DNA of 64,000 bases from an uncultured Anaerolineales bacterium (GCA_964539105.1 CAZIFI010000003.1:39202-103201); one strand, 5' to 3'; shown: positions 3,410 through 64,000, numbered from the stretch's first letter. Notes: generated by a model not told the origin, from the sequence alone. Translations and numbers: made by a program.

Positions 3410-3486
3410 TACAAACGCTCTGACCTGGACAAATGGTCGGATACCCCTTTGGACATCCCGCATTTCAAGACAAGAGATGGTTGACT

Positions 3487-9181: not shown

Positions 9182-9280
9182 GGTCGTAACTCCTGTATTG
9201 AAGGAAATCAAGCAAAGTGATTATAGCACGGAGAGAGTACGTTGTTCTCTAAACATGCCATGTCCCGCACCCCGCACTGA

Positions 9281-10666
9281 TCATTGAAAAATGGCTGTCA
9301 ACGGAGCAACCCAGTGAGACAGAATATGGGGAAAAAGTCCCGCCATAAGAAGCAAGAAGGAGCCTATGATCACGAAGACCCTCCCCGCAGATAATCTGGT
9401 TTGAGGTAAGCCGGACTCATGTCCTTCGTGGCTGAGCACGGACAACATCCGCAGCCCGCCCAGGATCAACCCCACATTTCCCAGAAAGAAAGGCCACAAG
9501 GGCCAATAGGCCCTTCCAATTAGCAAGGTCCCTAGATCCCAGTAGAGAGGAAAACCTCCCAGAAACGGCAAACCAGCCAGCGTGAAAAGCCCGCAGAACA
9601 TACCCACCGTAAGGATAGGATAGCGATTTCCCATCCCTTCCACCTCAGAATAAGACAGATCATCCCCATCCTGCCGATAAACAGCTAAAGCCATGGACCA
9701 CAACCCCAAGGATATCCCCTGCAGGACCAAGCCTCCAAAATACAAGTGCTGTCCTTCCGGGAATAAGCTGAAGATCACCAGTGAGCGTCCCAGTTCAGTG
9801 ATAACCGCAGCCCCTACCATCCGACCTAGATGAGAGACAAATATGGCAGATACACCACCCACCGCAATCATCAACAAACCAACCAATTGAACGGGTTTCA
9901 AGACGTCAAAGACATTCAACAACCAGTCCGTTTCCGTAAGGTATTTAAGGGCAAACAGCAAGACCCCGTTAAGGTAAATAATGAACACAAACGACACCAG
10001 ATAGGGGTGGTTGTCCTCGGAGATCATGGATATCCAGCTGGTAAAAGGAAAAATACCCAACAGGAAAGAAAACCCCAGCCCCATGAGCACCATGGTCCGT
10101 GATAATAAACTAATATCCACTGTGTCCACATCAACCCAGCTCAACAACCAGGCAGCAAAGAGTATGCTGATCATACCCAGCACCTGGAAAGCCATAAAAC
10201 GCAGCACCCCTTTGGAGGGCACGGATCCTGCGGGAGAGAGCAGGATAACGGATACCATCGCTAAAAACCCGAAAAAGATGGCCGCATAGTACACAGGCTC
10301 AACTGCATACCCGGTCAGAACCAGACATACGGAGACCAACCCCAGTGGATAGAGTTTCCGCGGAGCATGATGAAAAAAGCTGAATAAAAACCACAAGGCC
10401 AATAGTAGATAGATAAGGACCAGGAGAGGACGATCGGCGTTGTCCAGAAAAAATCGGCGGCCAAAGAATACCAGCTGCGGGGAAATCTCAAAGGACAAAG
10501 GCCCTAGGGTCAGAGTGCGGCCGATCGGGACCCATCGGGCTCCGAATGCCATCCCACACGAAACTGACATCGCCATCCCGCGCATCCACCTCTCATGTTC
10601 GGAGAGTAAAGCCAGTATGCCGGCGATCAGGACGGGAATCACGATCCACACCACAGGGGCACTCAT
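9281..10666 (-). CDS. Polytopic integral membrane protein, unknown function
   Basis: 461 aa with at least 12 predicted hydrophobic helices. Its start overlaps the stop of the upstream membrane ORF (ATGA), so translation is coupled. It lacks the HxWxPDAxEGPTPVSALIHAATMV antiporter motif. Confidence 0.6.
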   Translation of the reverse strand: MSAPVVWIVIPVLIAGILALLSEHERWMRGMAMSVSCGMAFGARWVPIGRTLTLGPLSFEISPQLVFFGRRFFLDNADRPLLVLIYLLLALWFLFSFFHHAPRKLYPLGLVSVCLVLTGYAVEPVYYAAIFFGFLAMVSVILLSPAGSVPSKGVLRFMAFQVLGMISILFAAWLLSWVDVDTVDISLLSRTMVLMGLGFSFLLGIFPFTSWISMISEDNHPYLVSFVFIIYLNGVLLFALKYLTETDWLLNVFDVLKPVQLVGLLMIAVGGVSAIFVSHLGRMVGAAVITELGRSLVIFSLFPEGQHLYFGGLVLQGISLGLWSMALAVYRQDGDDLSYSEVEGMGNRYPILTVGMFCGLFTLAGLPFLGGFPLYWDLGTLLIGRAYWPLWPFFLGNVGLILGGLRMLSVLSHEGHESGLPQTRLSAGRVFVIIGSFLLLMAGLFPHILSHWVAPLTAIFQ

Positions 10667-11256
10667 TCCCAGACCTCCAGGGTGGATATATTCAGGAGGT
10701 ATGCCCCCAGGAACGCCAATCCTATATGATTAACGGCGAGCAATGCCGTCATCAACACCGACGCTTCAACGGTAGCATACAAAATTTCAAACCCGGAAAG
10801 GACGGTCAATAAACCCACGATCAGCCGTGTGGGCTCCACAGCTAATCCTACCTGGATCAAGCCCAACCCAAACAGCAGCAACCCTCCCAGCACCTGCTGG
10901 CGGCTGGCACCGATAAACCACTTCAAAGCTACCGGGAGAAATGATGAGATAGACAATGCCGCCAGCACAGCTAACAAACTCCGGAAAAGCGGGGTGGGTA
11001 TTTTACGCGGCTCTCCAGTTACACGGTGTTCTGACATGTTGAGGTATGTCACCCCCAATACCGCTGCTGACATCCAACCAGCAACGACCTTTACCAGGGC
11101 AATTTCCGGAGGCCAGCTCTGCGAGATCAACAGCGTTACACCCACGTACTGTAAAGCCAATAAACTTATCATCCAGCGCCAATCATTCACCAGCAATAGG
11201 CCCAAAGAGAGAATAAATAGCAGGCTAACGGTCAGAGACGTCAAGACATCCAGCAT
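10663..11256 (-). CDS. Small integral membrane protein (about 5 TM), unknown function
   Basis: 197-aa hydrophobic ORF translationally coupled to the flanking membrane ORFs. Confidence 0.55.
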   Translation of the reverse strand: MLDVLTSLTVSLLFILSLGLLLVNDWRWMISLLALQYVGVTLLISQSWPPEIALVKVVAGWMSAAVLGVTYLNMSEHRVTGEPRKIPTPLFRSLLAVLAALSISSFLPVALKWFIGASRQQVLGGLLLFGLGLIQVGLAVEPTRLIVGLLTVLSGFEILYATVEASVLMTALLAVNHIGLAFLGAYLLNISTLEVWE

Positions 11257-11259
11257 GAT

Positions 11260-12804
11260 TTATCCACCTCCGGATGAAGTCAGGAGGGACAGCAGGAAAA
11301 ACACACCCACCAGAGCCCAGATCAATCCGGCCCTGCCTTCCAATATGTGAAAGGTTCCCATCACAATAGCGCTGAACAATCTTCCCATTTGCAGCACCCT
11401 GTTCGAAATGGATTCAGGGAGACCGGACAGCGAGTTTTTCAGTTGTGGGAACCATACTTCCGGGATCGAGATCCAGTTTATAGCCAGCAGAAAGGGGACA
11501 AAGATAATTGCGGGTAGAAGGAACCGCCATCCCTGATTCCAGAACTGCGCACTGGCCGGAGCCAATCCCTCCAGGAACGAAAACAATATATGAACGGATG
11601 CCAGAAAGATCACACTAGCCATATGCAAGACCAATTCCGGGCGTTTATAGTCGGAGCGGGGTGCATCTGAGCGCATGACATGCCGGAACCCACCGGCGAT
11701 AAACATCCCGAAACCCACTGCCCACACCACACCCCACAACCCCCGGGAAAAAAGAGCAGCACCCGGCCAGAGCGGTGTATACGGCCAGGCAAGTATGCCT
11801 AACCCAAACAAGCCAGCCGCTCCATATCTCAATATGTGATGAGAGGGCAAGAGAAACAATATATTCCCCGACAGCAACGCTGCCAGAGCCCAGCTTATAC
11901 TCACCATCTCCTGTCCATTGACAGCAGCCAGGGCGACGAACCCCAGCCACCCCGCCAACCAGGTATTTCTTCCTGCGGATAGATCCCGGGAAGTCAACCA
12001 CCACGATCCGCTAAAAATCAGTATGATCCCCAGCAGCCCATAAAACGGAGCTTTCCAGGTGTGCGGGACGCCGGAGGCTGCACCCCTGACGATGATCAGC
12101 ATGCTTACAGCGCCGGTTATGGAATGAATCAAAGTCAGTTGCCCGGCCTGAAGCCCGGCATGGTCTGTGGGAGATAATTTGGGCAGGGAAAAAAGATAGC
12201 GAATCCCGGAAGCCAGGATCAACAAACCAGCAATCCGGGGATCGATCACCTGGAAGGTAACCGGCAGGCCCTCAGCAAGGGAAAAATTGTGGGCATAGAC
12301 CACAAGGAAAGGTCCCCATAGCCGGAACGCGAACGAGAAAACAAACTGATCATGTCGTACATCAGGCGAGCGATTTCTAAAATGGAACCCGAACTGGAGC
12401 ACGTCGACCAACACCCAAGAAAAGAGCAGGGTGAGGATATTTCCAGCCAATACTCCCAACAAAGCTGCACACCCTAATCCCAGCACCCACACCAGTTCCC
12501 TGTTTAGCTCAGGAAAGATGACCGCATATGCCAGGATCAAACTCACCACAATCAGGAAAAACAACCAGGACACATGGTCGATGAGCAGCGCTGGCTGCGT
12601 GGTGAATGGACCGCGGGAAGACCAGGGTATGAGGGAGATAGCCATTGGCTGGACTGGCCGTCCTACAAACACCAGGATCCACACCACAAGCGCCCCACCC
12701 CCCAGGGCGTAGGGGGGTAGGACCAGGTCTGACCGGCGCCATGACAACACCCCGGCACTAATCACGATCAGATATAAAACTAAAAGCGCGATGAGGACAA
12801 TCAT
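11260..12804 (-). CDS. Polytopic integral membrane protein (about 14 TM), unknown function
   Basis: 514 aa, rich in W and G, hydrophobic throughout. Its start codon overlaps the folK stop (ATGA). Confidence 0.6.
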   Translation of the reverse strand: MIVLIALLVLYLIVISAGVLSWRRSDLVLPPYALGGGALVVWILVFVGRPVQPMAISLIPWSSRGPFTTQPALLIDHVSWLFFLIVVSLILAYAVIFPELNRELVWVLGLGCAALLGVLAGNILTLLFSWVLVDVLQFGFHFRNRSPDVRHDQFVFSFAFRLWGPFLVVYAHNFSLAEGLPVTFQVIDPRIAGLLILASGIRYLFSLPKLSPTDHAGLQAGQLTLIHSITGAVSMLIIVRGAASGVPHTWKAPFYGLLGIILIFSGSWWLTSRDLSAGRNTWLAGWLGFVALAAVNGQEMVSISWALAALLSGNILFLLPSHHILRYGAAGLFGLGILAWPYTPLWPGAALFSRGLWGVVWAVGFGMFIAGGFRHVMRSDAPRSDYKRPELVLHMASVIFLASVHILFSFLEGLAPASAQFWNQGWRFLLPAIIFVPFLLAINWISIPEVWFPQLKNSLSGLPESISNRVLQMGRLFSAIVMGTFHILEGRAGLIWALVGVFFLLSLLTSSGGG

Positions 12805-13304
12805 GATTCCCGTTCTACGAAAGGCTCAACCCCGTGCTGGTCGACATCCTGGAGCAAATCCGTGACCTTTTTCCCAAGTCCGGGATGCATCAGATCGGGA
12901 GCGATTTCCGCCAGGGGGATCAGCACAAAAGCCCGCTCTGCGATCCGGGGATGGGGAATTTGAAGCATTTCATCCTCATAGGTCCGACTTCCATAAAACA
13001 GGATATCTATATCGATCACCCGGGGGCCATAGCGGAACGTTTCCTCGCGTCCCATATGGTCTTCAATATCTTTCAAATACACCAGGAGTTCCGGGGGAGA
13101 AAGGGTTGTACGCCCCTGAATGACTTGATTCAGGAAGGCGGGTTGATCCTCATATCCCCAGGGCTCCGTCTCATAAATGGTAGAGGTTTTCAGCACGCGA
13201 ACCGGGGGCGGGAGATGCTGGATGGCTCGCTCGAGATACCTCCTTCTATCCCCCATATTCGACCCCAATGCAAGGTACACCTTCACAGCTTCTTTTTCGT
13301 CCAC
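12801..13304 (-). CDS. folK: 2-amino-4-hydroxy-6-hydroxymethyldihydropteridine pyrophosphokinase (HPPK)
   Basis: Motifs VYLALGSNMGDR, YETEPWGYEDQPAFLNQV and DIDILFYG are typical of FolK. Confidence 0.9.
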   Translation of the reverse strand: MDEKEAVKVYLALGSNMGDRRRYLERAIQHLPPPVRVLKTSTIYETEPWGYEDQPAFLNQVIQGRTTLSPPELLVYLKDIEDHMGREETFRYGPRVIDIDILFYGSRTYEDEMLQIPHPRIAERAFVLIPLAEIAPDLMHPGLGKKVTDLLQDVDQHGVEPFVERES

Positions 13305-17547: not shown

Positions 17548-17650
17548 TAGCTTCGGGTGGGTCCGACGCGGCAGAGACCTATGAACCGTGTCAGGTCCGA
17601 GAGGAAGCAGCACTAAGTGGGATCCTCTGGGTGCCGTCGGTAAGCCTGCC
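17548..17650 (+). ncRNA. ffs: Signal recognition particle RNA (small 4.5S-type SRP RNA)
   Basis: Contains the near-universal domain IV motif GUCAGGUCCGAGAGGAAGCAGCA, matching the E. coli 4.5S GUCAGGUCCGGAAGGAAGCAGC. It lies directly downstream of a consensus promoter. The ends are approximate. Confidence 0.8.
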
Positions 17651-17684
17651 CGAGGCTGTTTCCCTTTGGTTCCCCGTACTTCCT

Positions 17685-19097
17685 ATGTCCAATCGCTCCC
17701 AACCCCTGTCCTTTCCCCTGAATAAAACGATTGTCATCCTGGCAGCAGCGGCCCTCATTCTGCTGGGGGTTGCGACATTGACCGTCAGCGCTCATAAGCA
17801 GGTCCACCTCATCATCAACGGGAAACAGGAAACGAAATCGACCTTTGCCTTCACCGTAGGTGGATTCCTGCACCAACAGCAGATCCCATGGGACGAAGAG
17901 GATGTGCTTTATCCCCCTCCGCAGCATGTATTGCGGGGGCAGGACACCATCGTCCTTCAAAACGGAAGTCACATCACGGTCCGTGCCGATCAGGAAACGA
18001 CCCGGCTGGTCACCACACAACGCAAGCCAGCCAATATTCTGGCAGAAGGGGACATCCCTCTCTTTCCCCAGGACCGGATCCTGGTCAATAACGAAGCTGT
18101 TGAACCTGACCACGAACTGGCTTATCACCCGCAATACACCATAGACATCGAGCGGGCTACCCCGGTCACCGTGTTTTCCGGAACGGACACAATCCAATTC
18201 ACCACCCACGCTCCTACCCTCGCGCAAGCCCTGTGGGAAGAGGGAATCCCGCTTTACGAAGGAGACCAACTGGTTCCACCCGCCCACACAGAACTGCAGG
18301 GCAAGCCGCTTGATGTTGACCTTCAACGTTCCAGACCGATAAACGTCACCCTGCCAACCCGCACCATGACAGGCCGCACCACAGCGGACACCGTGGGTGG
18401 TGCCCTTGCTGAACTGGGTTTAACCCTTCAAGGCCGGGACTATAGCACACCGGGTGAGGATCAGCCCATCCCATCCTCGGGAAACATTCAGGTAACGCGC
18501 GTTACCGAAGACGTCATCCTGCAACAGGAACCGATACCCTTCACGAACACATATCAGGCCGTCAACGACCTGGAAATAGATCAAAGGAAGATCGTAGAAG
18601 GAGGTCAGTACGGGCTTAAAGCCAGCCGTGTCCGGGTGGTGTATGAAGACGGGGTGGAAAAAGAACGGATCACAGAAAAAGAGTGGACCGCCAAAGAACC
18701 CCAGCCCAGGGTAATTGGCTACGGGACAAAGATCGTCAAGCACACAGAAAACACAAGGGACGGTCAGATTCAGTACTGGCGGAAGATCACCGCTTATGCC
18801 ACGTCATACGATGAAACCTGCCCGGGATGTGATGACACCACTTACAGCGGAGCTCCCCTCAAAAAAGGAAGCATCGCCGTCACGCGGGATTGGTACCAGT
18901 ACATGGCAGGATTGAGGGTTTACATTCCCGGATATGGTTTCGGCCGGATTGAAGACATCGGCGCAGGTGTCGTTGGCGAATACTGGGTTGATTTAGGCTA
19001 CCGCTCCGAAAACTATAAGCCCTGGAATAGAAATGTTGATGTGTATTTCCTGTGGCCTCCCCCTTCAGCCCAGAATATCATGTACGTCCTTTACTGA
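17685..19097 (+). CDS. YabE-like cell-wall protein (DUF348, G5, C-terminal 3D domain)
   Basis: N-terminal TM, then repeated DUF348/G5-like segments. The C-terminal 3D (MltA-like) domain shows YATSYDETCPGCDDTTYSGAPLKKGSIAV...RIEDIGAGV...WVDLG. Start set at MSNRSQ. Confidence 0.8.
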   Translation: MSNRSQPLSFPLNKTIVILAAAALILLGVATLTVSAHKQVHLIINGKQETKSTFAFTVGGFLHQQQIPWDEEDVLYPPPQHVLRGQDTIVLQNGSHITVRADQETTRLVTTQRKPANILAEGDIPLFPQDRILVNNEAVEPDHELAYHPQYTIDIERATPVTVFSGTDTIQFTTHAPTLAQALWEEGIPLYEGDQLVPPAHTELQGKPLDVDLQRSRPINVTLPTRTMTGRTTADTVGGALAELGLTLQGRDYSTPGEDQPIPSSGNIQVTRVTEDVILQQEPIPFTNTYQAVNDLEIDQRKIVEGGQYGLKASRVRVVYEDGVEKERITEKEWTAKEPQPRVIGYGTKIVKHTENTRDGQIQYWRKITAYATSYDETCPGCDDTTYSGAPLKKGSIAVTRDWYQYMAGLRVYIPGYGFGRIEDIGAGVVGEYWVDLGYRSENYKPWNRNVDVYFLWPPPSAQNIMYVLY

Positions 19098-40069: not shown

Positions 40070-40233
40070 CAGTATACCTCCACGGGATATATACTACCAT
40101 CAACAGGGGGTTCATGTCACCCTTTCCCCGCCCCAAGGTCTTGCCAGCCAGACCCCCATCCGCTACACTGAAAAGAGAAAACATGGCTGCCGCTGTTTTC
40201 CTCATCCCTCACATGGAAGGAGAGTCAAAAACG

Positions 40234-41128
40234 ATGGATGTCATCCCAACGGGGTCTTTATTTCTGGACCGTTCCCTGGGTACAGGGGGACTTCCCAGAG
40301 GATGGATCACGGAACTGTATGGACCTCCCTCTTCGGGAAAAACAACCCTGGCTCTGTATATCCTGGCTGAAGCGCAGCACATTGGCCTGACAGCGGCCTT
40401 CCTGGACATCGAAAGCGGCCTCGACCCCGCTTACGCCGAACGCTGCGGGGTCGTCAAACCCGGACCGGGCCCTGATCGCATCTCCCGAAAGCGGCACCAA
40501 GGCCCTCACCCTGTGCCGTTTGCTGCTCGAATCAGGCGATGTCCATCTGGTGGTGCTGGACTCCCTGGCAGGGTTGGCATCCAACCGGGAACTGGAAATC
40601 GGGTTCTATCCCGATCGCTATGGAGAGCTCAACCCCTTGTTGGCCTCCCATCTTAGAAAGATCGACCGGATTTGCCGGTTAACAGGCGGAACCTTACTGT
40701 GTACCAATCAACTCCGCACCCGGACCAGGAAGGGCTACGGTACCCCGGAAACAACGCCCGGTGGGTTGACCATCAAATTCCACGCAGCAGTCAGAATTGC
40801 CCTGAAGGTAATCTGCCCCCTGGGAAGGAAAGGTCATTACCACGGAGTACGGATTAACGCTACCGTAAACAAGAACCGCTTTCACCCCAAAGAGCATAGC
40901 GCACAGATCGAGATCGTGTATAATAAAGGTATAAATAAGGAAAGGGAATTAATTTCCCTGGGCAAAGAAGTTAAATTGATTACTAAACATGGCTCCATGT
41001 ATCAGTATCGGGGCCAAAACCTTGGACAGGGACAACAAGCTGCCTATCAGACACTGCAGGTGAATGAACATGTGGCACAAGCTCTGGAAAGAGACCTGCG
41101 GGCAATGATACTTCCCCCCATACGCTAG
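40234..41128 (+). pseudogene. recA: recA: divergent, N-terminally truncated and interrupted by a +1 frameshift near 40450-40458
   Basis: Frame 1 (40234-40458) encodes [38 protein letters not shown]...[20 protein letters not shown], which corresponds to RecA residues ~35-110. Frame 2, from about 40457 to 41128, continues ..[36 protein letters not shown]...NQLRTRTRKGYGTPETTPGG...KFHAAVRIALK.. to a normal C-terminus. Removing one A from CAAACC at 40455-40457 restores a single ORF. No ORF upstream encodes the canonical N-terminal ~33-aa helix. An AAGGAGAG Shine-Dalgarno sits 10 nt before ATG 40234. Confidence 0.7.
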
Positions 41129-55031: not shown

Positions 55032-55551
55032 GTGGCTATGCTGTGTGCCCTGGCAGGAGACATCATCGGCTCCGTTTATGAAGGGGAACCGATCAAAACC
55101 ACAGAATTCCCGCTATTTCAGGACGGATCCCGTTTTACAGATGACACCGTCCTCACCCTGGCAGTCGCAGAAGCCATCTTGGGGAATGGGAACTATGGCC
55201 GAAAGCTGAAGGAGTTTGGCCGCCAGTATCCGGGCAGGATACGGGGGACACTTTTACCAGTAGGTTTTCCAGGATGAAATTCAGCCGTACAACAGGTGGG
55301 GAAACGGGGCTGCCATGCGGGTCAGCCCGGTGGGATTCGCCTTTGATACGGAAAATGGTGTGCTGCGGGAAGCGCAGGCCAGCGCTGAAGTCTCCCGCAA
55401 CCATCCTGAAGGCATCAAAGGAGCCCAGTCTGCTGCCCTGGCTGTCTTTCTGGCCCGGACGGGCATGGAAAACACCTTCCCAATAGGTTTAATGTCGGAA
55501 TTCTGGAAAACCATCCTCAATCGACGTCATTATAGGTCCAGTAGCGGTTGA
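55032..55551 (+). pseudogene. ADP-ribosylglycohydrolase family gene, decayed (frameshift, in-frame TAG, 3' truncation)
   Basis: Frame 0 encodes ALAGDIIGSVYEGEP...FTDDTVLTLAVAEAIL...GRQYPG. Frame 1 then continues AGYGGHFYQ-TAG-VFQDEIQPYNRWGNGAAMRVSPVGFAF...EVSRNHPEGIKGAQSAALAVFLAR. Inserting 2 nt at about 55233 restores the consensus YPDAGYGG. TAG at 55261 is probably a former TGG (Trp). The reading frame ends where the convergent gtrA gene begins, after about 173 aa where about 300 are expected. Confidence 0.7.
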
Positions 55552-55987
55552 CAAAAAAGTTCCAGAACATGACCACCACAACAGCCACGCCCAGAGCAAA
55601 GGTGTATCCCAGGCGATCCGGGGTCACAATCCAGATCGGTAAAAATGAAAATCCGGCAAAGAATCGGCGCAGCGGATACTGCAAAGCAGCGAAGAGGGGT
55701 GTGCGGATGCCAAGACCGATGATGTTGACCACAAAAAACGTCACCACCTGGTGATGAATGGGTTTGGACCGTGAGTCGGGATATGTCCAGAACCGGTTCC
55801 ACAGGAAATTACTGGTGATAGCAGCGATAAAAGAAAATACACTGGCCCACACCGCCCGGACTCCGATCACGCTTTCCAGGAAATGAAAGGTGCTGAAATC
55901 TACCACAGCCCCGATGGTGCCCACCACCGTGAAGCGCATAAACCTCACCCTTTCCCGTTGATCCGTGACAATGCTCGTGAAGATCAT
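55517..55987 (-). CDS. GtrA-family polyprenol-phosphate-sugar flippase-like membrane protein
   Basis: About 157 aa with 4 TM and the paired GtrA motifs NFLWNRFWTY and NFFVNRYWTY. Start at MIFTSIV, 8 nt downstream of the UXS stop. The longer ORF-track start overlaps the UXS gene. Confidence 0.75.
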   Translation of the reverse strand: MIFTSIVTDQRERVRFMRFTVVGTIGAVVDFSTFHFLESVIGVRAVWASVFSFIAAITSNFLWNRFWTYPDSRSKPIHHQVVTFFVVNIIGLGIRTPLFAALQYPLRRFFAGFSFLPIWIVTPDRLGYTFALGVAVVVVMFWNFFVNRYWTYNDVD

Positions 55988-55994
55988 GTCCACC

Positions 55995-56948
55995 CTAAAT
56001 ATTTTGTTTGAAATAGGGCAGCGTTTTTCGCAACCCTTCTTCCAGCGACACCTTGGGTGCCCAATCAAGGACATCTTTCGCCCGGCTGATATCCGGACGT
56101 CTGCGCTCCGGATCACCTTCCCCCCGCTTTTCCGGAAAAATACTGACTTCTTCCGGGTTATCCAGCAGCTCATTAACGGTGTGCGCCAGTTCCAGAATCG
56201 ATATTTCATCCGGATTGCCAATATTGACAGGACGATGTTCATCCGCCAGCAATAAACGATATATGCCCTCGATCAGGTCGTCCACAAAACAGAAGCTGCG
56301 TGTCTGGCTGCCGTCCCCATACACCGTGAGTGGTTTGCCGTGCAAGGCTTGCTTGATGAAGTTGGGCACGACCCGTCCGTCGTCCAGACGCATGCGGGGA
56401 CCGTAGGTATTAAATATGCGCACAATGCGGGTATCTATATCGTGATAACGTTGGTAGGCAAACGTCAGCGCTTCTGCAAAGCGTTTTGCCTCGTCATACA
56501 CGGATCGTTCCCCGATGGGATTGACATGGCCCCAATAACCCTCATGCTGGGGATGGACCTCTGGGTCACCGTAAATTTCGCTCGTGGATGCCAGCATGAA
56601 GCGGGCTCCAAAGGCCCGGGCCACCCCGAGCGTGTTATGCGTTCCCAGCGCACCGGCTTTCATGGTCTGGATGGGCAGATTTACATAGCCATAAGGCGAG
56701 TTCGGGTTGGGGCTGGCAGGCGAAGCAAAGTGCATCACCGCATGCAGTTCATCTCCCGGAACAAAGATATACTGGGAGACATCATGGCGGATGAATGAAA
56801 ATCGTTCATGACCGGATAAATGGGCTAAATTTTCCCTCCTGCCGGTGATGAAATTATCCATCCCAATCACCTCATGCCCTTCTTTGATCAAGCGGTCACA
56901 GAGATGTGAACCCAAAAATCCTGCCGCACCTGTGATAAGTATTCTCAT
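55995..56948 (-). CDS. UDP-glucuronate decarboxylase (UDP-xylose synthase) / NAD-dependent SDR
   Basis: [20 protein letters not shown] Rossmann motif, the Yxxx K catalytic region and close resemblance to the UXS/ArnA-decarboxylase subfamily ([20 protein letters not shown]). Confidence 0.85.
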
Positions 56949-57010: not shown

Positions 57011-58621
57011 TTACTTCCAATCCATGCGCTGCACGCGGCCATCACCGGTCACGGGCCAGGATTCACCTGTGTCCGGATCGATCACGTGAATATTCCCTTC
57101 ATAAAGCACAGCCAGCAGATCCTGGTTACCATTTTCTACATTCCCTGGTGCCCATACACCCCAGTGTCTGCTGGGTTCAATCCCGGGTTCTTCCTGGGCG
57201 GGGAACACTGTGCGCTGATTGGATCCATCGCGATCCATGACGTTCACGCGGTATTTACTGGAGTCACTCTGGCGGGGAAACACCGCCTGCAGATATGCCA
57301 CCCGGTATTCTCCCTCTGTAAGGGGACTGGAACGTTTGGGAGAAACCAGAGGGTAAGCAAACATGCCCACTTCTCTCACTAGCGCCGTCGATCTCCCTTC
57401 GGCCAGAGACACAGCAGCCAAATTAAACAGGGGTGATTCCTCTGCAGAACCAGCTCCCTCCAGCGGGACATGCTCCACCGTGAAAAGATGATCCCCGTTT
57501 GGACCCAAGCTTATGCCCGGCATCCAGGCCCAGTCGCCGCGGGTTTTATAGGGCAGAATATCAAGTAACGTTCCTACTTCACCGGTATCGCTGTCAATTG
57601 TGCCTACCCGATCCGGGCTGGAAAACAAAAATCTCTTATCCCCTTCCAGATGCCTGAAATCTGTTCCCCACCATCCGTATACACTGATAATAGATTCCAC
57701 CAGGGTCTCCTGCTCCTGAATACCGGTGGAGTCGAATCTGGTGAGCTTGAGATCATTGCTGGCCTGCCAGCCAGGAGAGGCAACCCGGGATTCCACGGTC
57801 GAAAAAGCAACATTCTCAACTGACCCGGGAGCCCAATCAGCGAAATGGATAATGTTTTCCGCTTCAAGATCGATTAATTCTCCATCTTGGGCAGTAATAT
57901 TTTTCGCCCACAGGGTGTTAATGACATCCTCATCCCCCTCTTCCTGGCGGGTAAATAAGAGCCATGAGCCATCATCCGAAACAGAAAAAATACGCCCGTC
58001 CAGATCGCCCGTAGCTACGACCAGGGACCGGTTAGCGGTCGATTCCTCCATCATCCAAGCATTTCCATCCGACAGGTAAACGATCCGTCCGGGAATGGTA
58101 AGGGGGGAGACGAAAGACTGCTTTCCTACCAGCACAATTTCGTCCACGGACTCCTCAACAACGACACTGTTGACCTCCTCATAGGATACTTCTTCCCCAT
58201 TTTCAAAAACCCGCACGTGGGTCACCTGCCGCAGACCGTTCTCTCCCGCTTGAAGCAGCTGTTCTTCCCCTTCGGGCAGGCTTTCACTCGACTGGCAGAT
58301 AACCTGATAGGGAATCGCTTCTTCTTCTGTGTTAAATTCCTCCCTGACACGCACAACCTCCACTGTTGTGTCGCGCTCCAGGACCGTGGAAGGAACTGGA
58401 TTTACACGATCCTTGCCTTCCAGCGTAACTTGAGCAGCCTCCAGCACGTCGCCCACGGTGCTGCCTGAAGGCAGACTCACCGTTTGCCGGGCACCATCTG
58501 CTAAAATTTCAACCTGGATCTCGCCCCCGGAAGACGATAACTGGGATGGGCTGCATCCCGCGCTCAAGATGAGGACGGCAAGGACAAAAAAAGACAAAAG
58601 AGAATAATGGTATAATCTCAT
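57011..58621 (-). CDS. Secreted lipoprotein with probable beta-propeller (TolB/PD40-like) region
   Basis: Signal peptide with the lipobox LSAGC, a Ser/Gly linker, and repeated beta-strand-rich segments. No catalytic motif recognised. Confidence 0.55.
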   Translation of the reverse strand: MRLYHYSLLSFFVLAVLILSAGCSPSQLSSSGGEIQVEILADGARQTVSLPSGSTVGDVLEAAQVTLEGKDRVNPVPSTVLERDTTVEVVRVREEFNTEEEAIPYQVICQSSESLPEGEEQLLQAGENGLRQVTHVRVFENGEEVSYEEVNSVVVEESVDEIVLVGKQSFVSPLTIPGRIVYLSDGNAWMMEESTANRSLVVATGDLDGRIFSVSDDGSWLLFTRQEEGDEDVINTLWAKNITAQDGELIDLEAENIIHFADWAPGSVENVAFSTVESRVASPGWQASNDLKLTRFDSTGIQEQETLVESIISVYGWWGTDFRHLEGDKRFLFSSPDRVGTIDSDTGEVGTLLDILPYKTRGDWAWMPGISLGPNGDHLFTVEHVPLEGAGSAEESPLFNLAAVSLAEGRSTALVREVGMFAYPLVSPKRSSPLTEGEYRVAYLQAVFPRQSDSSKYRVNVMDRDGSNQRTVFPAQEEPGIEPSRHWGVWAPGNVENGNQDLLAVLYEGNIHVIDPDTGESWPVTGDGRVQRMDWK

Positions 58622-58702
58622 CCTAGTGAAAACCTAACTGACCAATCGCTATTGCGTATATGTTGCAGTCGGAAAACCATCTATCTGAACTCAAATTATA
58701 GC

Positions 58703-59287
58703 ATGTCAGATAACTCTTCCCCTCCCGACAAAAAAAACCATGCTCTGGATCTGACCTCCAAGGTCGAGGCCCTGTTATTCGTCTCCCCGGACCCCATCAC
58801 ACCCTACCAGTTGGGCACCATCCTGGAGGTTACCGCACACAGAATCAAGGGCTGTCTGGAGGAGTTGGCGGACCAATATCGGGATCGGGGTATTCGTCTC
58901 CAGACCCATGACGGTGCTGTGCAGCTCACTTCTGCCCCCGAAGCAGCAGACCTGATCGAACGCTTTCTCGACATCGAAACCACCACCACCCTCAGCCAGG
59001 CTGCTTTAGAGACCCTGTCTATCGTCGCCTACCAGCAGCCCGTGACCCGCCCCCAGGTCGATGACATCCGGGGCGTAAACAGTGACGGCGTGCTGCGCAC
59101 CCTGCTCAGTAAGGGGCTGATCGAAGAAGTAGGTCGGGCTGAAGGTCCCGGACGACCCATTCTGTACAGCGCGACCCAGGAATTCCTGAAATATTTTGGG
59201 CTGTCTTCCTTTGACGATCTGCCGCCCCTCGATATTGAGGACCTTGAAGACCGAAAACTCAAAGACCCCAAAGTGCTCAAAGGATGA
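58703..59287 (+). CDS. scpB: Segregation and condensation protein B
   Basis: Winged-helix ScpB motifs (VEALLFVSPDPIT, C-terminal GRAEGPGRPILYSATQEFLKYFGL). Start at MSDNSS. No scpA is adjacent. Confidence 0.85.
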   Translation: MSDNSSPPDKKNHALDLTSKVEALLFVSPDPITPYQLGTILEVTAHRIKGCLEELADQYRDRGIRLQTHDGAVQLTSAPEAADLIERFLDIETTTTLSQAALETLSIVAYQQPVTRPQVDDIRGVNSDGVLRTLLSKGLIEEVGRAEGPGRPILYSATQEFLKYFGLSSFDDLPPLDIEDLEDRKLKDPKVLKG

Positions 59288-59355
59288 GCCGCCTTGCATG
59301 AACGGGTCTAGGAACCATCCGCACACGATTTTAGTTCATTCAATTGTCTATACCT

Positions 59356-60063
59356 ATGGGAAAGAGACTGCAAAAAATTTTGGCCCGATCCGGTTATGGG
59401 TCCCGCAGAACCTGTGAAGAGATGATCGAAAATAAGCGGGTCAAGGTCAACGGGCAAGTCGCTGCGCTGGGCACAAAGGCGGATCGCCAGCAAGATGATA
59501 TTACCGTGGATGGCCAGCCTATCCCCCGCCCAGAGCCGCTGAAATATATCGCCCTCCACAAACCCCCCGGGGTGCTGTCCACCGTGAAATCACCCGGTGA
59601 TCGACCAACAGTGCGGGATTATGTACACGTTCACGGTCGCTTATATCCGGTGGGACGTCTGGATGTGGGCAGCGAGGGCTTAATCCTGATGACAAATGAT
59701 GGTAAACTAACCAACCGCCTGACCCATCCTCGCTACGAGCACGAAAAGGAATACCGGGTATATGTCACAGGGCATCCCACGCAGGACCAACTGAAAAAGT
59801 GGCGGGATGGCGTCCATCTCCAGGACGGGTACCGCACCCAGCCTGCAGGGGTTGAGGTTGAATCCCGGGACAAGGCTGGAGCCTGGCTGCGCGTCATTCT
59901 CCGGGAAGGAAAAAAACGCCAGATTCGCCGTATGGGAGACCAGACATGTCTGCCGGTGGAACGTATCATCCGGGTCAGGATCGCTGACCTCACCCTGGGC
60001 GACCTCCAGGCAGGTGAATGGCGGCACCTCACGGAACAAGAAGTCCAGAAGTTAAAGTCATGA
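59356..60063 (+). CDS. rluB: Pseudouridine synthase, RluB/RsuA family
   Basis: N-terminal S4 domain (RLQKILARSGYGSRR) and the catalytic motif GRLDVGSEGLILMTNDG. Confidence 0.85.
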   Translation: MGKRLQKILARSGYGSRRTCEEMIENKRVKVNGQVAALGTKADRQQDDITVDGQPIPRPEPLKYIALHKPPGVLSTVKSPGDRPTVRDYVHVHGRLYPVGRLDVGSEGLILMTNDGKLTNRLTHPRYEHEKEYRVYVTGHPTQDQLKKWRDGVHLQDGYRTQPAGVEVESRDKAGAWLRVILREGKKRQIRRMGDQTCLPVERIIRVRIADLTLGDLQAGEWRHLTEQEVQKLKS

Positions 60064-63000
60064 AAGAGAATAAGGAAACAGCAAACATGGAAAAAGAATC
60101 CTCCCAGGAAAAAAAGTCGTGGCTTGAAAAACCCGTCATTTCCGATCTGAGCATTTCATGGGAAAGTCTACTCTTTGGTGTGATCCTGCTTCTGGCTGTA
60201 TTGTCCCGGTTCTATGATGTCGGAGCCCGTGTCATCAGCCACGATGAAACCTCCCATGTTTATTATGCCTGGCGCTTATTCAAGGGGTGGGGTTATGCTC
60301 ACGATCCCATCACCCACGGACCGCTGCAGTTTCATGCTCTGGCTCTGACCTATTTTATCTTCGGTGCCAGCGATTTCACGGCCCGCATTCCGACCATCCT
60401 GGCCGGGATCGCCACCCTGGCTTTTCTGTGGAAATACCGGCGTTATCTGGGGCGCTGGGGAACGCTGGCTGCGGCCCTGATGACCCTGATTTCCCCTTTT
60501 ATGCTCTTTTACAGCCGGTACGTGCGCAATGAAGCGTATGTAGCGCTCTTCGGCGTGGTCACCATCTGGGCCCTATTACGCTATCTGGAAACCCGGTCCC
60601 CCCGATTCCTGTACTGGCTGACAGCAGCCACCGTGCTGCACTTTACAGCCAAGGAAACCGCTTTCATTTACACGGCTCAGGCCATGGTGTTGTTGGGCTT
60701 GATCTTCGTCACCCGCGTTACCCAACGGAAATGGCAGGACAATAACCTGCGGTCCATCTTCCTGACAGCCCTCATTTTGGCTGCCCTGTTGATCACGATT
60801 GGCTTTGTGATGCAAACGGTGTCAGCCCCTGTCTCGGAGGCAGAAGAGGCAGCATCCATCATGCCCCGCAGCACACTGATCTTCCTGGGGCTGAGTCTGA
60901 TCAGCCTGATCTTTGCCCTCTTTACCGCCATCCGGGGATATACCTGGGAAAAATTGACAGCCATGCCATCTTTTAGTGCCATGCTGCTGCTGGGAACCCT
61001 GGTTCTGCCCCAGCTGGCTGCCTTTCCGGTGCGGATGATCGGCTGGAACCCGCTGGATTACAGCCAGACAGGGATGCTGCGCACAGGCGGATTTGTCATT
61101 TTTCTGACCCTCATCGCGGCCGGCATCGGCTACGCCTGGAATTTCCGGCTGTGGTTGACCTGCATGGCCATCTTCTATATCCCCTTTACGGTCCTGTACA
61201 CCACCGTATTTACCAATGGGACAGGGTTTTTCACCGGGCTGGTCGGCTCCCTGGGGTACTGGTTAGAGCAGCAGGGAGTGGAACGGGGCAGCCAGCCCTG
61301 GTATTACTACTGGCTGATCCAGATCCCGATATATGAATATCTACCCGCCCTGGGCAGCATGGCCGCCCTGATTGGAATGGGCATAAAACAATTGTTTTCC
61401 CCGGATCGATACCTAAAGAAGCATGAACTGCAGCAGGAAGATGAGGAATTGCCCTCAGATGAAGAACATCATGGTGCTCCGGTCTTCGCTGTGCTGGCAT
61501 TCTGGGTCTTGACCAGCCTCATTGCCTATCCCATCGCCGGGGAAAAAATGCCCTGGCTCACCGTGCACATTGCCTGGCCCATGATCTTACTATCTGGCTG
61601 GGGATTCCAGAAATGGATCAATCACTTTGACCCGGTTCAATTTCGCGAAAAGCGGGGATGGGTGGTTGCCATCCTCAGCCTGCTGTTTATCATCAGCCTC
61701 AGCAGGGTCCTCGGCACATTGCTTTCCCCAGATCAGCCCTTCCAGGGTCAACAGTTGAGCCAGCTCAGGCAGACCGGCACATTCTTTACCACCCTGATCT
61801 TTACCCTAGCTGCGGGGGCGTTCCTCTTCAACCTCATCAAGGGCTGGCGTCTCAAACAATTTGCCCTGACAGGAAGCCTGACCATATTTCTGATCCTGGT
61901 CGTCTTGACCACTCACACCTCCGTTCAGGCTTCATACATAAACTATGATAGCCCGGAGGAATATCTGGTTTATGCCCACAGCGCGCGGGGAGTCAAGGTG
62001 GCCCTGGATCAGATCGAAGAAGTCTCGGAACGGCTCACCGGCGGCCTGTCCGCCACCGTGGCCTTTGATAATGAAACCACGTACCCGTACTGGTGGTATC
62101 TCCGAGATTACCCCAACCAGAAATACTATGCCGAAAACCCCACCCGCGAACAGCGCGAGGCTCCCCTGATCCTGGTCGGGAATAACAATTACGGCAAAAT
62201 CGAACCTGTGGTTGGAAATGCGTATTACCAATTCGAATATAACCGCATCGTGTGGCCCAACCAGGACTATTACAACCTGACCTGGGAGCGGATCTGGAAC
62301 GCGGTCCGCAACCCCGAGATGCGGGAAGCCATTTTCAATATCTGGCTCAACCGGGACTACACCAAATATGCCAACCTTAAAAACCAGGATATGAGCCTGG
62401 AAAACTGGAGTCCCGTCGATGAAATGCGGCTCTATGTCCGCAAAGACGTGGCTGCCAGGGTATGGAACTACGGCTCCTTTGAACAGGGGCTGGATGAGCT
62501 TTCCGCAGATCCCTATGAGGGCAAAGAGCAAACCCTTACGGCGGATTTTGTCATCAACCAGCCTGCCCTCAATAACCCCCGCAATCTGGCCCTGGCCCCG
62601 GACGGCTCCCTGTATGCTCTGGATACCGGGAACCACCAGGTGCTGCATGTTTCACCTTCGGGTGAACTCCTAAATTCCTGGGGTTCCTTCAGCGGAACAG
62701 AAAACGAGACTATCCCCCCCGGGACCTTTAACGAACCGTGGGGAATTGATGTCGGACCACAAGGCAATGTGTTTGTGGCGGACACCTGGAATCACCGCAT
62801 TCAGAAATTCACACCGGATGGGGAATACCTGCTCAGCTGGGGCCATTTCGGTCAACGCGAAACACCGGACGCTTTCTGGGGGCCCAGAGACGTGGCCGTG
62901 GACCCCAATGGTCATGTCTATGTCACGGATACCGGGAACAAACGAATTGCCATTTTCGATGGTGAGGGGAATTTTGTGGACGAGTTCGGAGAAGCCGGTC

Positions 63001-63410
63001 TGGGCGAAGGACAGTTCGATGAACCGGTGGGATTGGCCGTGGACGGTAGCGGCAACCTGTACGTGGCCGACACCTGGAACCAGCGGGTGCAGGTCTTCGC
63101 CCCTGACGAGCAGGGGGTCGCCCGCAATTTCATGACCAGCTGGGAGATCGCCGGCTGGTACGGGCAATCTCTGGATAATAAACCCTACCTGGCTGCAGCC
63201 GGGGACCGGGTGTATGTCACAGATCCGGAAGGGACCCGGGTTGTGGTCTTTTCATCCCAGGGAGAAATCCAATACTTCTGGGGCACATTCGGGACCGGTC
63301 AGGACCAGTTCAACCTGCCCACAGGAATTGCAGCAAGCCTGGAGGGTGGTGTGTGGGTCAGCGACACCAAAAACAACCGCTTGATGCATTTCACCTTGCC
63401 CACAGAATAA
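60060..63410 (+). CDS. Fusion protein: GT-C fold (PMT/ArnT-like, family 39/83) glycosyltransferase plus C-terminal NHL-repeat beta-propeller
   Basis: Start ATG overlaps the rluB stop (ATGA). The N-terminal about 700 aa are polytopic, with the PMT_2/ArnT-like first-loop region HDETSHVYYAWRL...DPITHGPL and many TM segments. The C-terminal about 330 aa contain at least 6 NHL repeats (VADTWNHRIQKF, YVTDTGNKRIAIF, YVADTWNQRVQVF, VSDTKNNRLMHF). Confidence 0.75.
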   Translation: MKENKETANMEKESSQEKKSWLEKPVISDLSISWESLLFGVILLLAVLSRFYDVGARVISHDETSHVYYAWRLFKGWGYAHDPITHGPLQFHALALTYFIFGASDFTARIPTILAGIATLAFLWKYRRYLGRWGTLAAALMTLISPFMLFYSRYVRNEAYVALFGVVTIWALLRYLETRSPRFLYWLTAATVLHFTAKETAFIYTAQAMVLLGLIFVTRVTQRKWQDNNLRSIFLTALILAALLITIGFVMQTVSAPVSEAEEAASIMPRSTLIFLGLSLISLIFALFTAIRGYTWEKLTAMPSFSAMLLLGTLVLPQLAAFPVRMIGWNPLDYSQTGMLRTGGFVIFLTLIAAGIGYAWNFRLWLTCMAIFYIPFTVLYTTVFTNGTGFFTGLVGSLGYWLEQQGVERGSQPWYYYWLIQIPIYEYLPALGSMAALIGMGIKQLFSPDRYLKKHELQQEDEELPSDEEHHGAPVFAVLAFWVLTSLIAYPIAGEKMPWLTVHIAWPMILLSGWGFQKWINHFDPVQFREKRGWVVAILSLLFIISLSRVLGTLLSPDQPFQGQQLSQLRQTGTFFTTLIFTLAAGAFLFNLIKGWRLKQFALTGSLTIFLILVVLTTHTSVQASYINYDSPEEYLVYAHSARGVKVALDQIEEVSERLTGGLSATVAFDNETTYPYWWYLRDYPNQKYYAENPTREQREAPLILVGNNNYGKIEPVVGNAYYQFEYNRIVWPNQDYYNLTWERIWNAVRNPEMREAIFNIWLNRDYTKYANLKNQDMSLENWSPVDEMRLYVRKDVAARVWNYGSFEQGLDELSADPYEGKEQTLTADFVINQPALNNPRNLALAPDGSLYALDTGNHQVLHVSPSGELLNSWGSFSGTENETIPPGTFNEPWGIDVGPQGNVFVADTWNHRIQKFTPDGEYLLSWGHFGQRETPDAFWGPRDVAVDPNGHVYVTDTGNKRIAIFDGEGNFVDEFGEAGLGEGQFDEPVGLAVDGSGNLYVADTWNQRVQVFAPDEQGVARNFMTSWEIAGWYGQSLDNKPYLAAAGDRVYVTDPEGTRVVVFSSQGEIQYFWGTFGTGQDQFNLPTGIAASLEGGVWVSDTKNNRLMHFTLPTE

Positions 63411-63438: not shown

Positions 63439-63475
63439 CACTCCCTGCCAGTCAAATGCAGGGAGTGTTTTATTA
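63439..63475 (+). terminator. Rho-independent terminator after the GT-C/NHL gene
   Basis: Stem cactccctgc / gcagggagtg with loop cagtcaaat, followed by TTTTATT. Confidence 0.75.
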
Positions 63476-63813: not shown

Positions 63814-64000
63814 ATGTTGCGATCCATGAACAACAAACACAAATTAATCCTCCTTTTCAGCGTTCTGTTATTGGTTGCCTTAGCGTGCGGTTTACCGTTC
63901 TCGCTTGGTGAACCATCTTCCGGGGTTTCCACTCCCAACCAGGGATCGCCCGCAGCAACGGAATCGAAAAGCAGTCCTGAGCTCCAGTTAGACTGCGAGA
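63814..64000 (+). CDS. Putative lipoprotein, 5' partial (runs off the window end)
   Basis: AAGGA Shine-Dalgarno 6 nt before ATG 63814. The encoded protein begins MLRSMNNKHKLILLFSVLLLVALACG, a lipobox, followed by a Ser/Pro/Thr-rich segment. No stop codon before the window ends. Confidence 0.4.
   Translation, partial: MLRSMNNKHKLILLFSVLLLVALACGLPFSLGEPSSGVSTPNQGSPAATESKSSPELQLDCE

What the first reader, a model, noticed from the sequence alone, without database searches (positions are those of the whole stretch)
60060..63410. 1116-aa GT-C glycosyltransferase fused to an NHL-repeat beta-propeller, translationally coupled to scpB-rluB
The N-terminal about 700 aa resemble PMT/ArnT-type GT-C glycosyltransferases that use polyprenyl-phosphate sugar donors on the extracytoplasmic face. 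The C-terminal about 330 aa are a six-bladed NHL propeller, typically a ligand- or substrate-binding module. This fusion suggests an enzyme that recognises a protein or glycan substrate outside the membrane and glycosylates it, for example O-mannosylation-like or pentosylation of S-layer or cell-wall proteins. Its ATG overlaps the rluB stop, linking it to chromosome-segregation and rRNA-modification genes. That operon context is odd.
Basis: partly seen in the sequence, partly recalled or inferred. Interest (0 to 1): 0.6.

Follow-up and report, generated by a model that had tools for sequence, protein, structure and literature searches.

The report
Membrane glycosyltransferase fused to NHL propeller
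This is a real, intact gene for a large membrane protein that joins an ArnT/PMT-like sugar-transferase fold to an outward-facing six-bladed NHL propeller. It is a standard gene of Anaerolineae bacteria, already auto-annotated as a TIGR03663/Agl23-family protein, and its place behind scpB-rluB is inherited gene order, not a functional oddity.

The parts
60060..63410 (+). ORF of the TIGR03663-NHL fusion protein. It is 1116 aa from ATG 60060, and the stop codon is at 63408-63410.
60087..60089 (+). Probable true start codon (Met10 of the 1116-aa reading, giving 1107 aa). An AAGGA Shine-Dalgarno-like box lies at 60072-60076.
   Evidence: Homologue N-termini align here, and P0001 (91% identity) is 1107 aa. 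Sequence. The rluB-to-start spacer is about 23-30 nt in 24 species.
60060..61934 (+). Membrane module (residues 1-625): about 17 predicted TM helices, N-terminus inside, GT-C fold, with the PMT_2 match at residues 86-242.
60240..60248 (+). Codons for H61-D62-E63, the invariant acidic motif at the start of the first extracytoplasmic loop. This is the candidate catalytic site.
   Evidence: Invariant in alignments A1 and A2. The D-E pair was found by pattern in 116/120 close homologues, 114/150 distant representatives and 105/120 archaeal Agl23-like proteins. Most of the remainder are truncated or missed by the pattern.
61935..62519 (+). Extracytoplasmic alpha/beta 'mid' domain (residues 626-820). 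The fold is not assignable.
62556..63407 (+). Six-bladed NHL beta-propeller (residues 833-1116), predicted to be extracytoplasmic.
   Evidence: Pfam NHL 1.5e-43; PDB NHL domains 9e-54 to 1e-33; six repeats of the YV.D..N.R(I/V).F motif
63439..63474 (+). Intrinsic-terminator-like hairpin (10-bp GC-rich stem, 63439-63467) followed by UUUUAUU, 29 nt after the stop codon.
   Evidence: Fold of -25.8 kcal/mol, z -5.1; 0 of 200 shuffles fold as well. The consensus scanner missed it because the loop is 9 nt.
59344..60063 (+). RsuA/RluB-family pseudouridine synthase (S4 + PseudoU_synth_2), immediately upstream.
   Evidence: TIGR00093 163 bits passes its cutoff; the RluB equivalog model scores 152 against a cutoff of 290
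58652..59287 (+). scpB (SMC-Scp complex subunit B).
57011..58621 (-). Predicted lipoprotein with DUF348 + G5 domains, transcribed divergently from scpB.
   Evidence: lipobox-like LSAGCSP in the translation
55995..56948 (-). UDP-glucuronate decarboxylase (UDP-xylose synthase).
   Evidence: E 5e-110 to human UXS1 structures, next family 3e-40; Pfam
55517..55987 (-). GtrA-family small membrane protein (156 aa). Its start is 7 nt after the UXS stop. It is a possible lipid-linked-sugar flippase partner.
   Evidence: Pfam GtrA_DPMS_TM 5.5e-22; sequence; homologues of 156 aa in L001 and L002

Best explanation
The gene encodes an integral-membrane GT-C-fold protein of the TIGR03663 (Agl23) family. Most likely it transfers a sugar from a polyprenyl-phosphate-sugar donor to an acceptor on the outer face of the cytoplasmic membrane. 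The invariant Asp62-Glu63 pair after TM1 would be the catalytic acid/base site. Other invariant outer-face motifs (R153/Y154/R156/N157, K198-E199, the 397-426 loop, E495-K496-P498-W499) would bind the lipid phosphate and sugar. The C-terminal alpha/beta domain and six-bladed NHL propeller sit outside the cell membrane and would recognise or position the acceptor, a cell-envelope protein or glycan. CBM, MIR or TPR domains play this role in other GT-C enzymes.

What is shown: the ORF, the domain order, the fold of the model, motif conservation, and conservation of the fusion across Anaerolineae. What is inferred: topology, catalysis, the role of the propeller, and donor and acceptor identity.

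The gene is probably co-transcribed with scpB-rluB in this lineage simply because of compact, conserved gene order.

For: Motif. H61-D62-E63 is invariant in 65- and 19-sequence alignments down to 37% identity. The D-E pair is also kept in archaeal Agl23-like proteins.

Topology. There are 17 TM helices. The positive-inside rule is satisfied throughout (27 K+R in 122 inner-loop residues against 10 in 162 outer-loop residues). Nearly all invariant polar residues fall on the outer face, together with the C-terminal domains.

Fusion under selection. The NHL and mid domains are as conserved as, or more conserved than, the membrane part in 80 species. NHL is contiguous in at least 68 of 74 loci. Among the 102 distant representatives that hold both the N-terminal start and a complete mid domain, 84 keep the propeller.

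Three-component logic in relatives. On Halogeometricum plasmid pHBOR02 the Agl23 gene overlaps a GtrA gene. On metagenome contig L086 the order is Agl23 homologue, GT2, GtrA, all on one strand. In the window a UXS-GtrA operon lies 4 kb away and is kept near the gene in 28 of 52 testable genomes.

Precedent. GT-C enzymes with extracytoplasmic acceptor-binding modules are known, namely EmbC, AftD and GT136 ORF12 (PMC11127046; PMC8035078).
Against: The only experimental work on this family calls Agl23 a flippase. H. hispanica Agl23 is described as a putative hexose-P-Dol flippase, and the purified protein translocates M5GN2-PP-Dol in liposomes (PMC11182771).

No GT2 polyprenyl-phosphate-sugar synthase was found among 46 ORFs of the window scanned with Pfam. 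Six of eight archaeal loci show no GtrA or GT2 neighbour.

The equivalence of D62/E63 with the catalytic Asp of ArnT, PMT or PglB rests on position after TM1 and conservation only.

The fold evidence comes from a predicted model, not a solved structure. No acceptor or donor is identified.
Confidence: 0.55

Rival explanations
1. It works like its named relative Agl23. It would be a flippase or scramblase (or flippase-associated factor) that moves polyprenyl-phosphate- or pyrophosphate-linked sugars across the membrane, with the propeller docking the exporter to an envelope partner. The GT-C fold would be retained as a lipid-binding scaffold only.
For: The NCBIfam TIGR03663 match scores 213.5 bits against a cutoff of 126.25. 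Profile-profile homology to archaeal Agl23-annotated proteins has probability 99.8% and E 1.9e-28 over the membrane core. Published flipping activity exists for H. hispanica Agl23 (PMC11182771).
Against: The acidic motif typical of GT-C active sites, and a set of outer-face polar motifs, are invariant across bacteria and archaea. A mere scramblase would not need them. In two relatives the gene sits next to GtrA, the protein usually credited with flipping in three-component systems, which leaves the transferase role vacant (PMC8035078). From my own recollection of Lu 2020, which is not held in the library, the published agl23 knockout phenotype is loss of a hexose added from Dol-P-hexose; that is also what loss of a Dol-P-hexose-dependent GT-C transferase would give. 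A large extracytoplasmic propeller has no obvious role in flipping.
Confidence: 0.22
2. It is a non-catalytic envelope sensor or scaffold. The NHL propeller would bind an extracellular ligand (as proposed for the PknD sensor domain), and the polytopic domain would be an anchor derived from a dead GT-C enzyme.
For: The NHL domain matches the PknD extracellular propeller (E 2e-15). NHL domains are usually binding modules.
Against: A dead enzyme would not keep H-D-E and about 100 other invariant positions in the membrane part over 37-91% identity. There is no output domain on the cytoplasmic side: the inner loops are short.
Confidence: 0.08
3. The protein would be functionally tied to chromosome segregation or rRNA modification because it is translationally coupled to scpB-rluB.
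For: ATG 60060 overlaps the rluB stop. rluB is immediately upstream in 33 of 65 species loci. No terminator-like site was found between the genes.
Against: The conserved start is 60087, not 60060. In 16 loci rluB is 0.16-2.3 kb away with inserted genes, for example a BrnT toxin in L003. In 16 loci (Anaerolineaceae, Leptolinea, Longilinea) it is absent, and the neighbours are other housekeeping genes. Archaeal relatives sit between ribH and purK. The pattern is decaying synteny.
Confidence: 0.03

Closest known systems
Agl23 / TIGR03663 family (Haloarcula hispanica Agl23; 'flippase activity-associated protein')
   Same: The curated family model is passed (213.5 bits). The membrane core is homologous (hhalign 99.8%). 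Shared motifs include R-x-x-x-D-E after TM1, HGP, YSR-x-x-R, KE(T/S) and (E)-x-x-PW-T-VH. There is occasional linkage to GtrA.
   Different: The archaeal proteins are 550-650 aa and have no propeller. The bacterial protein has extra TM helices (residues about 255-385 align poorly) and a 300-aa NHL domain. The Pfam Agl23_C domain (PF26681) is listed for archaeal homologues but for none of the bacterial ones. The assigned function (flippase) differs from what the fold suggests.
ArnT (GT83, undecaprenyl-phosphate-L-Ara4N:lipid A transferase)
   Different: Identity is 12% and a family profile finds no PDB sequence at all. There is no arn operon: only a UXS-like decarboxylase is nearby, with no ArnB, C, D, E or F. 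From general knowledge, not tested here, Chloroflexota lack lipid A, so the acceptor must differ. ArnT has 13 TM helices and no propeller.
Protein O-mannosyltransferases PMT/POMT (GT39), and TMTC/TMEM260
   Different: There is no PF02366 PMT match and no MIR domain. The accessory domain is C-terminal NHL rather than loop-5 MIR or C-terminal TPR. The donor sugar is unknown.
Three-component (multi-component) extracytoplasmic glycosylation systems: GtrA/GtrB/GtrC, CsbB/GtcA/YfhO, GT136 ORF12 with C-terminal CBM
   Same: The logic is GT2 synthase, then small GtrA flippase, then GT-C transferase (PMC8035078). GT-C enzymes with an extracytoplasmic acceptor-binding module are known (PMC11127046). A complete Agl23-GT2-GtrA cluster exists in relative L086. 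A GtrA gene lies 4 kb from the window gene.
   Different: In the window the three parts are not clustered. No GT2 was found in 64 kb. GtrA is on the other strand behind three unrelated genes.
Extracellular NHL propellers (PknD sensor domain, ScyF, PAL)
   Same: Six-bladed NHL propeller on the outside of the membrane.
   Different: Here it is fused to a GT-C membrane module, not to a kinase, a PEP-CTERM anchor or a monooxygenase. The ScyF model scores 152 bits against a cutoff of 350.

Membership tests
GT-C glycosyltransferase superfamily | Polytopic membrane protein whose fold superposes on solved GT-C enzymes | tested here: met
GT-C glycosyltransferase superfamily | Conserved acidic residue(s) at the start of the first extracytoplasmic loop, directly after TM1 | tested here: met
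   D62-E63 are invariant and lie at the TM1/outer-loop boundary. Structural equivalence to the catalytic Asp was not checked by superposition.
GT-C glycosyltransferase superfamily | Sequence membership of a Pfam GT-C clan family | tested here: met
   PMT_2 PF13231, 56.3 bits against a cutoff of 26.1
GT-C glycosyltransferase superfamily | Transfers sugar from a polyprenyl-(pyro)phosphate donor | not testable with these tools
   Needs biochemistry.
TIGR03663 / Agl23 | Score above the curated NCBIfam cutoff | tested here: met
   213.5 bits against 126.25
TIGR03663 / Agl23 | Homology to archaeal Agl23-annotated proteins over the membrane core | tested here: met
   hhalign probability 99.8%, E 1.9e-28, 435 columns; BLASTP 30% identity over residues 42-231
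TIGR03663 / Agl23 | Agl23_C (PF26681) C-terminal domain | tested here: inconclusive
   The precomputed Pfam lists show PF26681 for archaeal homologues but for none of 120 bacterial homologues. The local Pfam copy lacks the model. hhalign reaches only the first 30 or so residues of the mid domain.
TIGR03663 / Agl23 | Single-module architecture of about 550-650 aa | tested here: not met
   The window protein is 1107-1116 aa, with extra TM helices and an NHL propeller.
TIGR03663 / Agl23 | Lipid-linked sugar flipping activity | not testable with these tools
   Reported only for H. hispanica Agl23 (PMC11182771).
PMT (GT39) protein O-mannosyltransferase | PF02366 PMT domain and a MIR domain in the large lumenal loop | tested here: not met
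   Only PMT_2 is found. There is no PMT or MIR hit, even at E up to 10.
ArnT (GT83) | Sequence similarity to ArnT and arn-operon context | tested here: not met
   The family profile has no PDB sequence hit at E up to 10. No arnB, C, D, E or F was found in the window.
Three-component Gtr-like glycosylation system | GT-C gene clustered with a GtrA-type flippase gene | tested here: inconclusive
   GtrA lies 4 kb away on the opposite strand. The linkage is kept in 28 of 52 genomes but lost in the rest. It is directly adjacent in 2 of 8 archaeal loci.
Three-component Gtr-like glycosylation system | GT2 polyprenyl-phosphate-sugar synthase gene in the cluster | tested here: not met
   No Glycos_transf_2 hit among 46 window ORFs or by tblastn in 80 related loci. 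It is present only in L086.
NHL-repeat beta-propeller | Six NHL repeats matching Pfam PF01436 and solved NHL domains | tested here: met
   NHL 145 bits, 5 stretches; six motif repeats; PDB hits 9e-54 to 1e-33

The most novel reading that the evidence does not exclude
The whole TIGR03663/Agl23 family, currently named after a flippase activity, would really be a family of GT-C glycosyltransferases. Its NHL-fused branch would be a lineage-wide Anaerolineae envelope-glycosylating enzyme. It would use a polyprenyl-phosphate-pentose (xylose) donor made from the product of the neighbouring UDP-xylose synthase and flipped by the neighbouring GtrA, with the propeller selecting the protein or glycan acceptor.
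Probability: 0.12. Interest if true: 0.65.

Novelty: new variant of a known kind. Interest (0 to 1): 0.35.

Why it matters
The gene is conserved in every Anaerolineae lineage sampled here, so it probably makes a basic feature of the cell envelope in a large, poorly studied bacterial class. Which glycan or glycoprotein that is remains unknown.

The analysis also exposes a tension that matters beyond this window. The family is named for a flippase activity, and that activity has been used as supporting evidence in the Rft1 debate. Yet its members have a complete GT-C fold, an invariant active-site-like D-E pair, and in some genomes sit in classical GT2-GtrA-GT-C clusters.

Resolving whether these proteins transfer, flip, or do both would affect how archaeal glycosylation pathways and the Agl23-based complementation results are read.

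A GT-C enzyme with an NHL propeller would add a new type of acceptor-recognition module to the CBM, MIR and TPR domains already known.

Tried and rejected
(1) Misassembly or chimera. Rejected: the fusion is contiguous in at least 68 of 74 species loci and in 120 protein clusters, and GC content is uniform.

(2) Sequence-level link to solved structures for the membrane part. A 19-sequence profile found nothing in the PDB at E up to 10, so only fold comparison works.

(4) Conserved functional partners in the Anaerolineaceae clade, which lacks rluB. The recurrent neighbours are GNAT, a beta-lactamase-like protein, a holin-like 4-TMS protein, ClpB/C-type ATPase, Gmd, HAD and MFS. That is housekeeping synteny with no glycosylation cluster.

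(5) A GT2 partner in the window. None among 46 ORFs.

(6) General Agl23-GtrA linkage in archaea. Only 2 of 8 loci show it. The chromosomal orthologues sit between ribH and purK or other housekeeping genes.

(7) Literature on TIGR03663 or GT-C+NHL fusions. Nothing relevant was found. The primary Agl23 paper (Lu 2020) is not held.

(8) The consensus terminator scan missed the hairpin after the gene because of its 9-nt loop. Folding found it.

(9) A mis-framed GtrA query was discarded. The correct frame was used.
Full report
OBSERVATION

A single + strand ORF runs to the stop codon at 63408-63410. It gives 1130 aa from the first ATG (60018) and 1116 aa from ATG 60060. ATG 60060-62 does overlap the TGA (60061-63) of the upstream pseudouridine synthase gene. 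However, the N-termini of 16 homologues align with Met10 of this reading (ME(K/N)E...SWL(D/E)KP), and the closest relative (P0001, 91% identity) is 1107 aa. ATG 60087 is also preceded by AAGGA at 60072-76. In 24 related species the distance from the end of rluB to this conserved Met is 23-30 nt. The likely product is therefore 1107 aa, starting 23 nt after the rluB stop. The four-base overlap is an ORF-reading possibility, not a conserved feature. GC content is even across the gene. A strong hairpin (10-bp stem at 63439-63467, then UUUUAUU; -25.8 kcal/mol, z -5.1) follows the stop codon and probably ends the transcription unit.

DOMAIN CONTENT

Pfam finds PMT_2 at residues 86-242 (56.3 bits, cutoff 26.1) and NHL repeats (145 bits, five stretches) near the C-terminus. 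NCBIfam places the protein in TIGR03663, 'flippase activity-associated protein Agl23' (213.5 bits, cutoff 126.25). PDB sequence hits are confined to the C-terminus and are NHL propellers: Thin 9e-54, TRIM71 2e-49, PAL, and the PknD sensor domain. Six blades carrying the YV.D..N.R(I/V).F signature can be read between residues 833 and 1116.

FOLD OF THE MEMBRANE PART

TOPOLOGY

I combined the helices of the model with hydropathy and the positive-inside rule. This gives 17 TM helices with the N-terminus inside and the C-terminus outside. Inner loops carry 27 K+R in 122 residues, and outer loops carry 10 in 162. Almost all invariant polar residues fall on the outer face. They are H61-D62-E63 directly after TM1, R153/Y154/R156/N157, K198-E199-T200, the loop 397-426 (S..YW..Q....R..QPWYYY), and E495-K496-M-P498-W499. 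The D-E pair is kept in the large majority of sequences checked by pattern: 116 of 120 close homologues, 114 of 150 distant representatives and 105 of 120 archaeal proteins. Most of the pattern misses are N-terminal fragments or spelling variants that still show the D-E pair by eye; P0265 (SSDAS) and P0243 do not show it. An acidic motif at this position is the hallmark of GT-C active sites. PMC7801869 describes an active-site DD motif in EL1 of related GT-C families. That the D-E pair is the PMT 'DE motif' is from my own knowledge (Lommel 2011, seen here only as a reference title).

THE OTHER TWO MODULES

IS THE FUSION REAL AND HOW COMMON IS IT?

Yes, it is real. The 120 best protein clusters (54-91% identity) are all about 1100 aa and cover 98-100% of the query. 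Sources name them 'TIGR03663 family protein' or 'predicted membrane-bound mannosyltransferase/beta-propeller', from Anaerolineales and Chloroflexota MAGs. A scan of one genome per GTDB species found 80 loci at 40-74% identity, nearly all titled as Chloroflexota, mostly Anaerolineae. The NHL part is contiguous with the mid domain in at least 68 of the 74 loci long enough to tell. An exhaustive HMMER search with residues 1-815 found 5049 50%-identity representatives at E up to 1e-3, and 865 at E up to 1e-30. Of the best 150, 96 carry the NHL domain. Of the 102 that contain both the N-terminal start and a complete mid domain, 84 carry the propeller and 18 end just after the mid domain. The NHL domain evolves no faster than the membrane part.

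GENOMIC CONTEXT

Upstream on the same strand lie scpB (58652-59287) and an RsuA/RluB-family pseudouridine synthase (59344-60063). Divergently transcribed are three genes:
- a DUF348-G5 lipoprotein (57011-58621);
- a UDP-glucuronate decarboxylase, i.e. UDP-xylose synthase (55995-56948; E 5e-110 to human UXS1);
- a 156-aa GtrA-family protein (55517-55987) starting 7 nt after the UXS stop.

The rest of the window is housekeeping: yidC, jag, parA and parB at the start, then selB, ABC exporters, PPDK, RNase Y, plsX, aldolase and others. None of the 46 ORFs scanned is a GT2.

Across species, rluB is directly upstream in 33 of 65 testable loci. In 16 it is 0.16-2.3 kb upstream with other genes inserted (for example a BrnT toxin pair in L003). 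In 16 it is absent; these are mostly the most divergent loci, including those titled Anaerolineaceae, Leptolinea and Longilinea, along with L004 and L044. Where rluB is lost, the neighbours are other housekeeping genes (sucCD, GNAT, clpB, Gmd, MFS) with no common glycosylation partner. The scpB-rluB linkage is therefore decaying, lineage-specific synteny in compact genomes, not evidence of shared function. The UXS-GtrA pair accompanies the gene in 28 of 52 testable loci.

RELATION TO AGL23

A tblastn search of plasmids found one hit, the Agl23-annotated gene of Halogeometricum borinquense pHBOR02 (30% identity over residues 42-231, with the D-E pair conserved). Its stop overlaps the start of a GtrA-family gene. 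A related metagenomic contig (L086) has Agl23 homologue, GT2, then GtrA in a row on one strand, which is the classical three-component layout (PMC8035078). Six other archaeal loci (L087-L092) show the gene alone among housekeeping genes, so the linkage is occasional (2 of 8). Profile-profile comparison of the bacterial and archaeal alignments gives probability 99.8% and E 1.9e-28 over the membrane core and the first part of the C-terminal domain. The bacterial residues of roughly 255-385 are unmatched, which means extra helices. The Pfam Agl23_C domain is recorded for archaeal but not for bacterial homologues, and I could not test it directly.

The published function of Agl23 is 'putative flippase' for hexose-P-dolichol, and the purified protein translocates M5GN2-PP-Dol in liposomes (PMC11182771). 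The primary paper (Lu et al. 2020) is not in the library.

MECHANISM

Most likely (0.55) the protein is a polyprenyl-phosphate-sugar-dependent glycosyltransferase acting at the outer face of the membrane. D62/E63 would form the catalytic site, and the mid domain plus NHL propeller would bind or position the acceptor. This is analogous to the CBMs of EmbC, AftD and GT136 ORF12 (PMC11127046), the MIR domain of PMTs, and the TPR domains of TMTC and TMEM260. The fold, the motif and the domain order are shown. Topology, catalysis, donor and acceptor are inferred.

The main rival (0.22) is that it flips lipid-linked sugars like its namesake. The two readings are not exclusive. A non-catalytic sensor or scaffold (0.08) and a functional tie to chromosome segregation or rRNA modification (0.03) are unlikely.

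The UXS-GtrA operon nearby suggests, weakly, a UDP-xylose-derived lipid-linked donor. I put about 0.12 on that full scenario.

NOVELTY AND VERDICT

The gene is an ordinary, correctly assembled member of a very large, already auto-annotated subfamily. What is undescribed in the searchable literature is the subfamily itself, namely a GT-C module with extra helices fused to an NHL propeller, and its biochemical role. I rate it a new variant of a known kind, with interest 0.35. The most useful by-product is the observation that the 'flippase' family Agl23 has every sequence and fold hallmark of a GT-C transferase.

Noticed in passing
window 55038-55524 (+): This looks like an ADP-ribosylglycohydrolase pseudogene. 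The match to the intact 255-aa orthologue of L001 is split between two frames at about 55231 and stops at residue 163, where the convergent GtrA gene ends.
   Followed up: partly
window 40219-41113 (+): recA appears split between two reading frames near 40452-40463. E. coli RecA residues 31-110 match frame 1 at 60% identity, and residues 113-329 match frame 2 at only 32%. This could be a frameshift, an assembly indel or an unusual recA. Together with the ARH remnant it suggests indel errors or real gene decay in this assembly.
   Followed up: partly
window 55517-56948 (-): A UDP-xylose synthase (E 5e-110 to human UXS1) and a 156-aa GtrA-family protein form a tight two-gene unit with a 7-nt spacer. 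The unit is conserved in at least 28 related genomes. A UXS-GtrA pairing hints at a lipid-linked xylose pathway. I did not find this pairing described, but I did not search for it specifically.
   Followed up: partly
L085 5917-8288 and L086 4662-7963: Archaeal Agl23-annotated genes are directly followed by GtrA (with stop/start overlap) in L085, or by GT2 then GtrA in L086. This is a textbook three-component glycosylation cluster in which Agl23 occupies the GT-C transferase slot, at odds with its 'flippase' name.
   Followed up: partly
window 57011-58621 (-) and 17631-19097 (+): There are two DUF348-G5 proteins in one 64-kb window. The first has a lipoprotein-like signal (LSAGCSP) and an unassigned C-terminal region of about 350 aa. 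It is conserved next to scpB in many Anaerolineales.
   Followed up: no
window 72-4362 (+): yidC, jag (KhpB), a PfkB-family kinase, parA and parB lie at the start of the window. This suggests the window sits next to the chromosomal replication-origin region.
   Followed up: no
window 6054-7934 (-): A SelB selenocysteine-specific elongation factor is present, so the organism probably makes selenoproteins.
   Followed up: no
window 8003-13304 (-): A run of five same-strand ORFs (402, 461, 197, 514 and 167 aa). The three that were scanned (402, 461 and 514 aa) have no significant Pfam match, and the 402-aa one has only coiled-coil-like sub-threshold hits. The 197-aa and 167-aa ORFs were not scanned.
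   Followed up: no
L083 3137-9969: In one species (MFD09779.bin.1.231) the membrane part and the mid/NHL part of the homologue are separated by about 3.5 kb. This could be an insertion into the gene or an assembly problem.
   Followed up: no
window 63815-64000 (+): A new ORF starts with a signal/lipobox-like sequence (MLRSMNNKHKLILLFSVLLLVALACG...) and runs off the end of the window. In relatives this position is occupied by sucCD instead.
   Followed up: no
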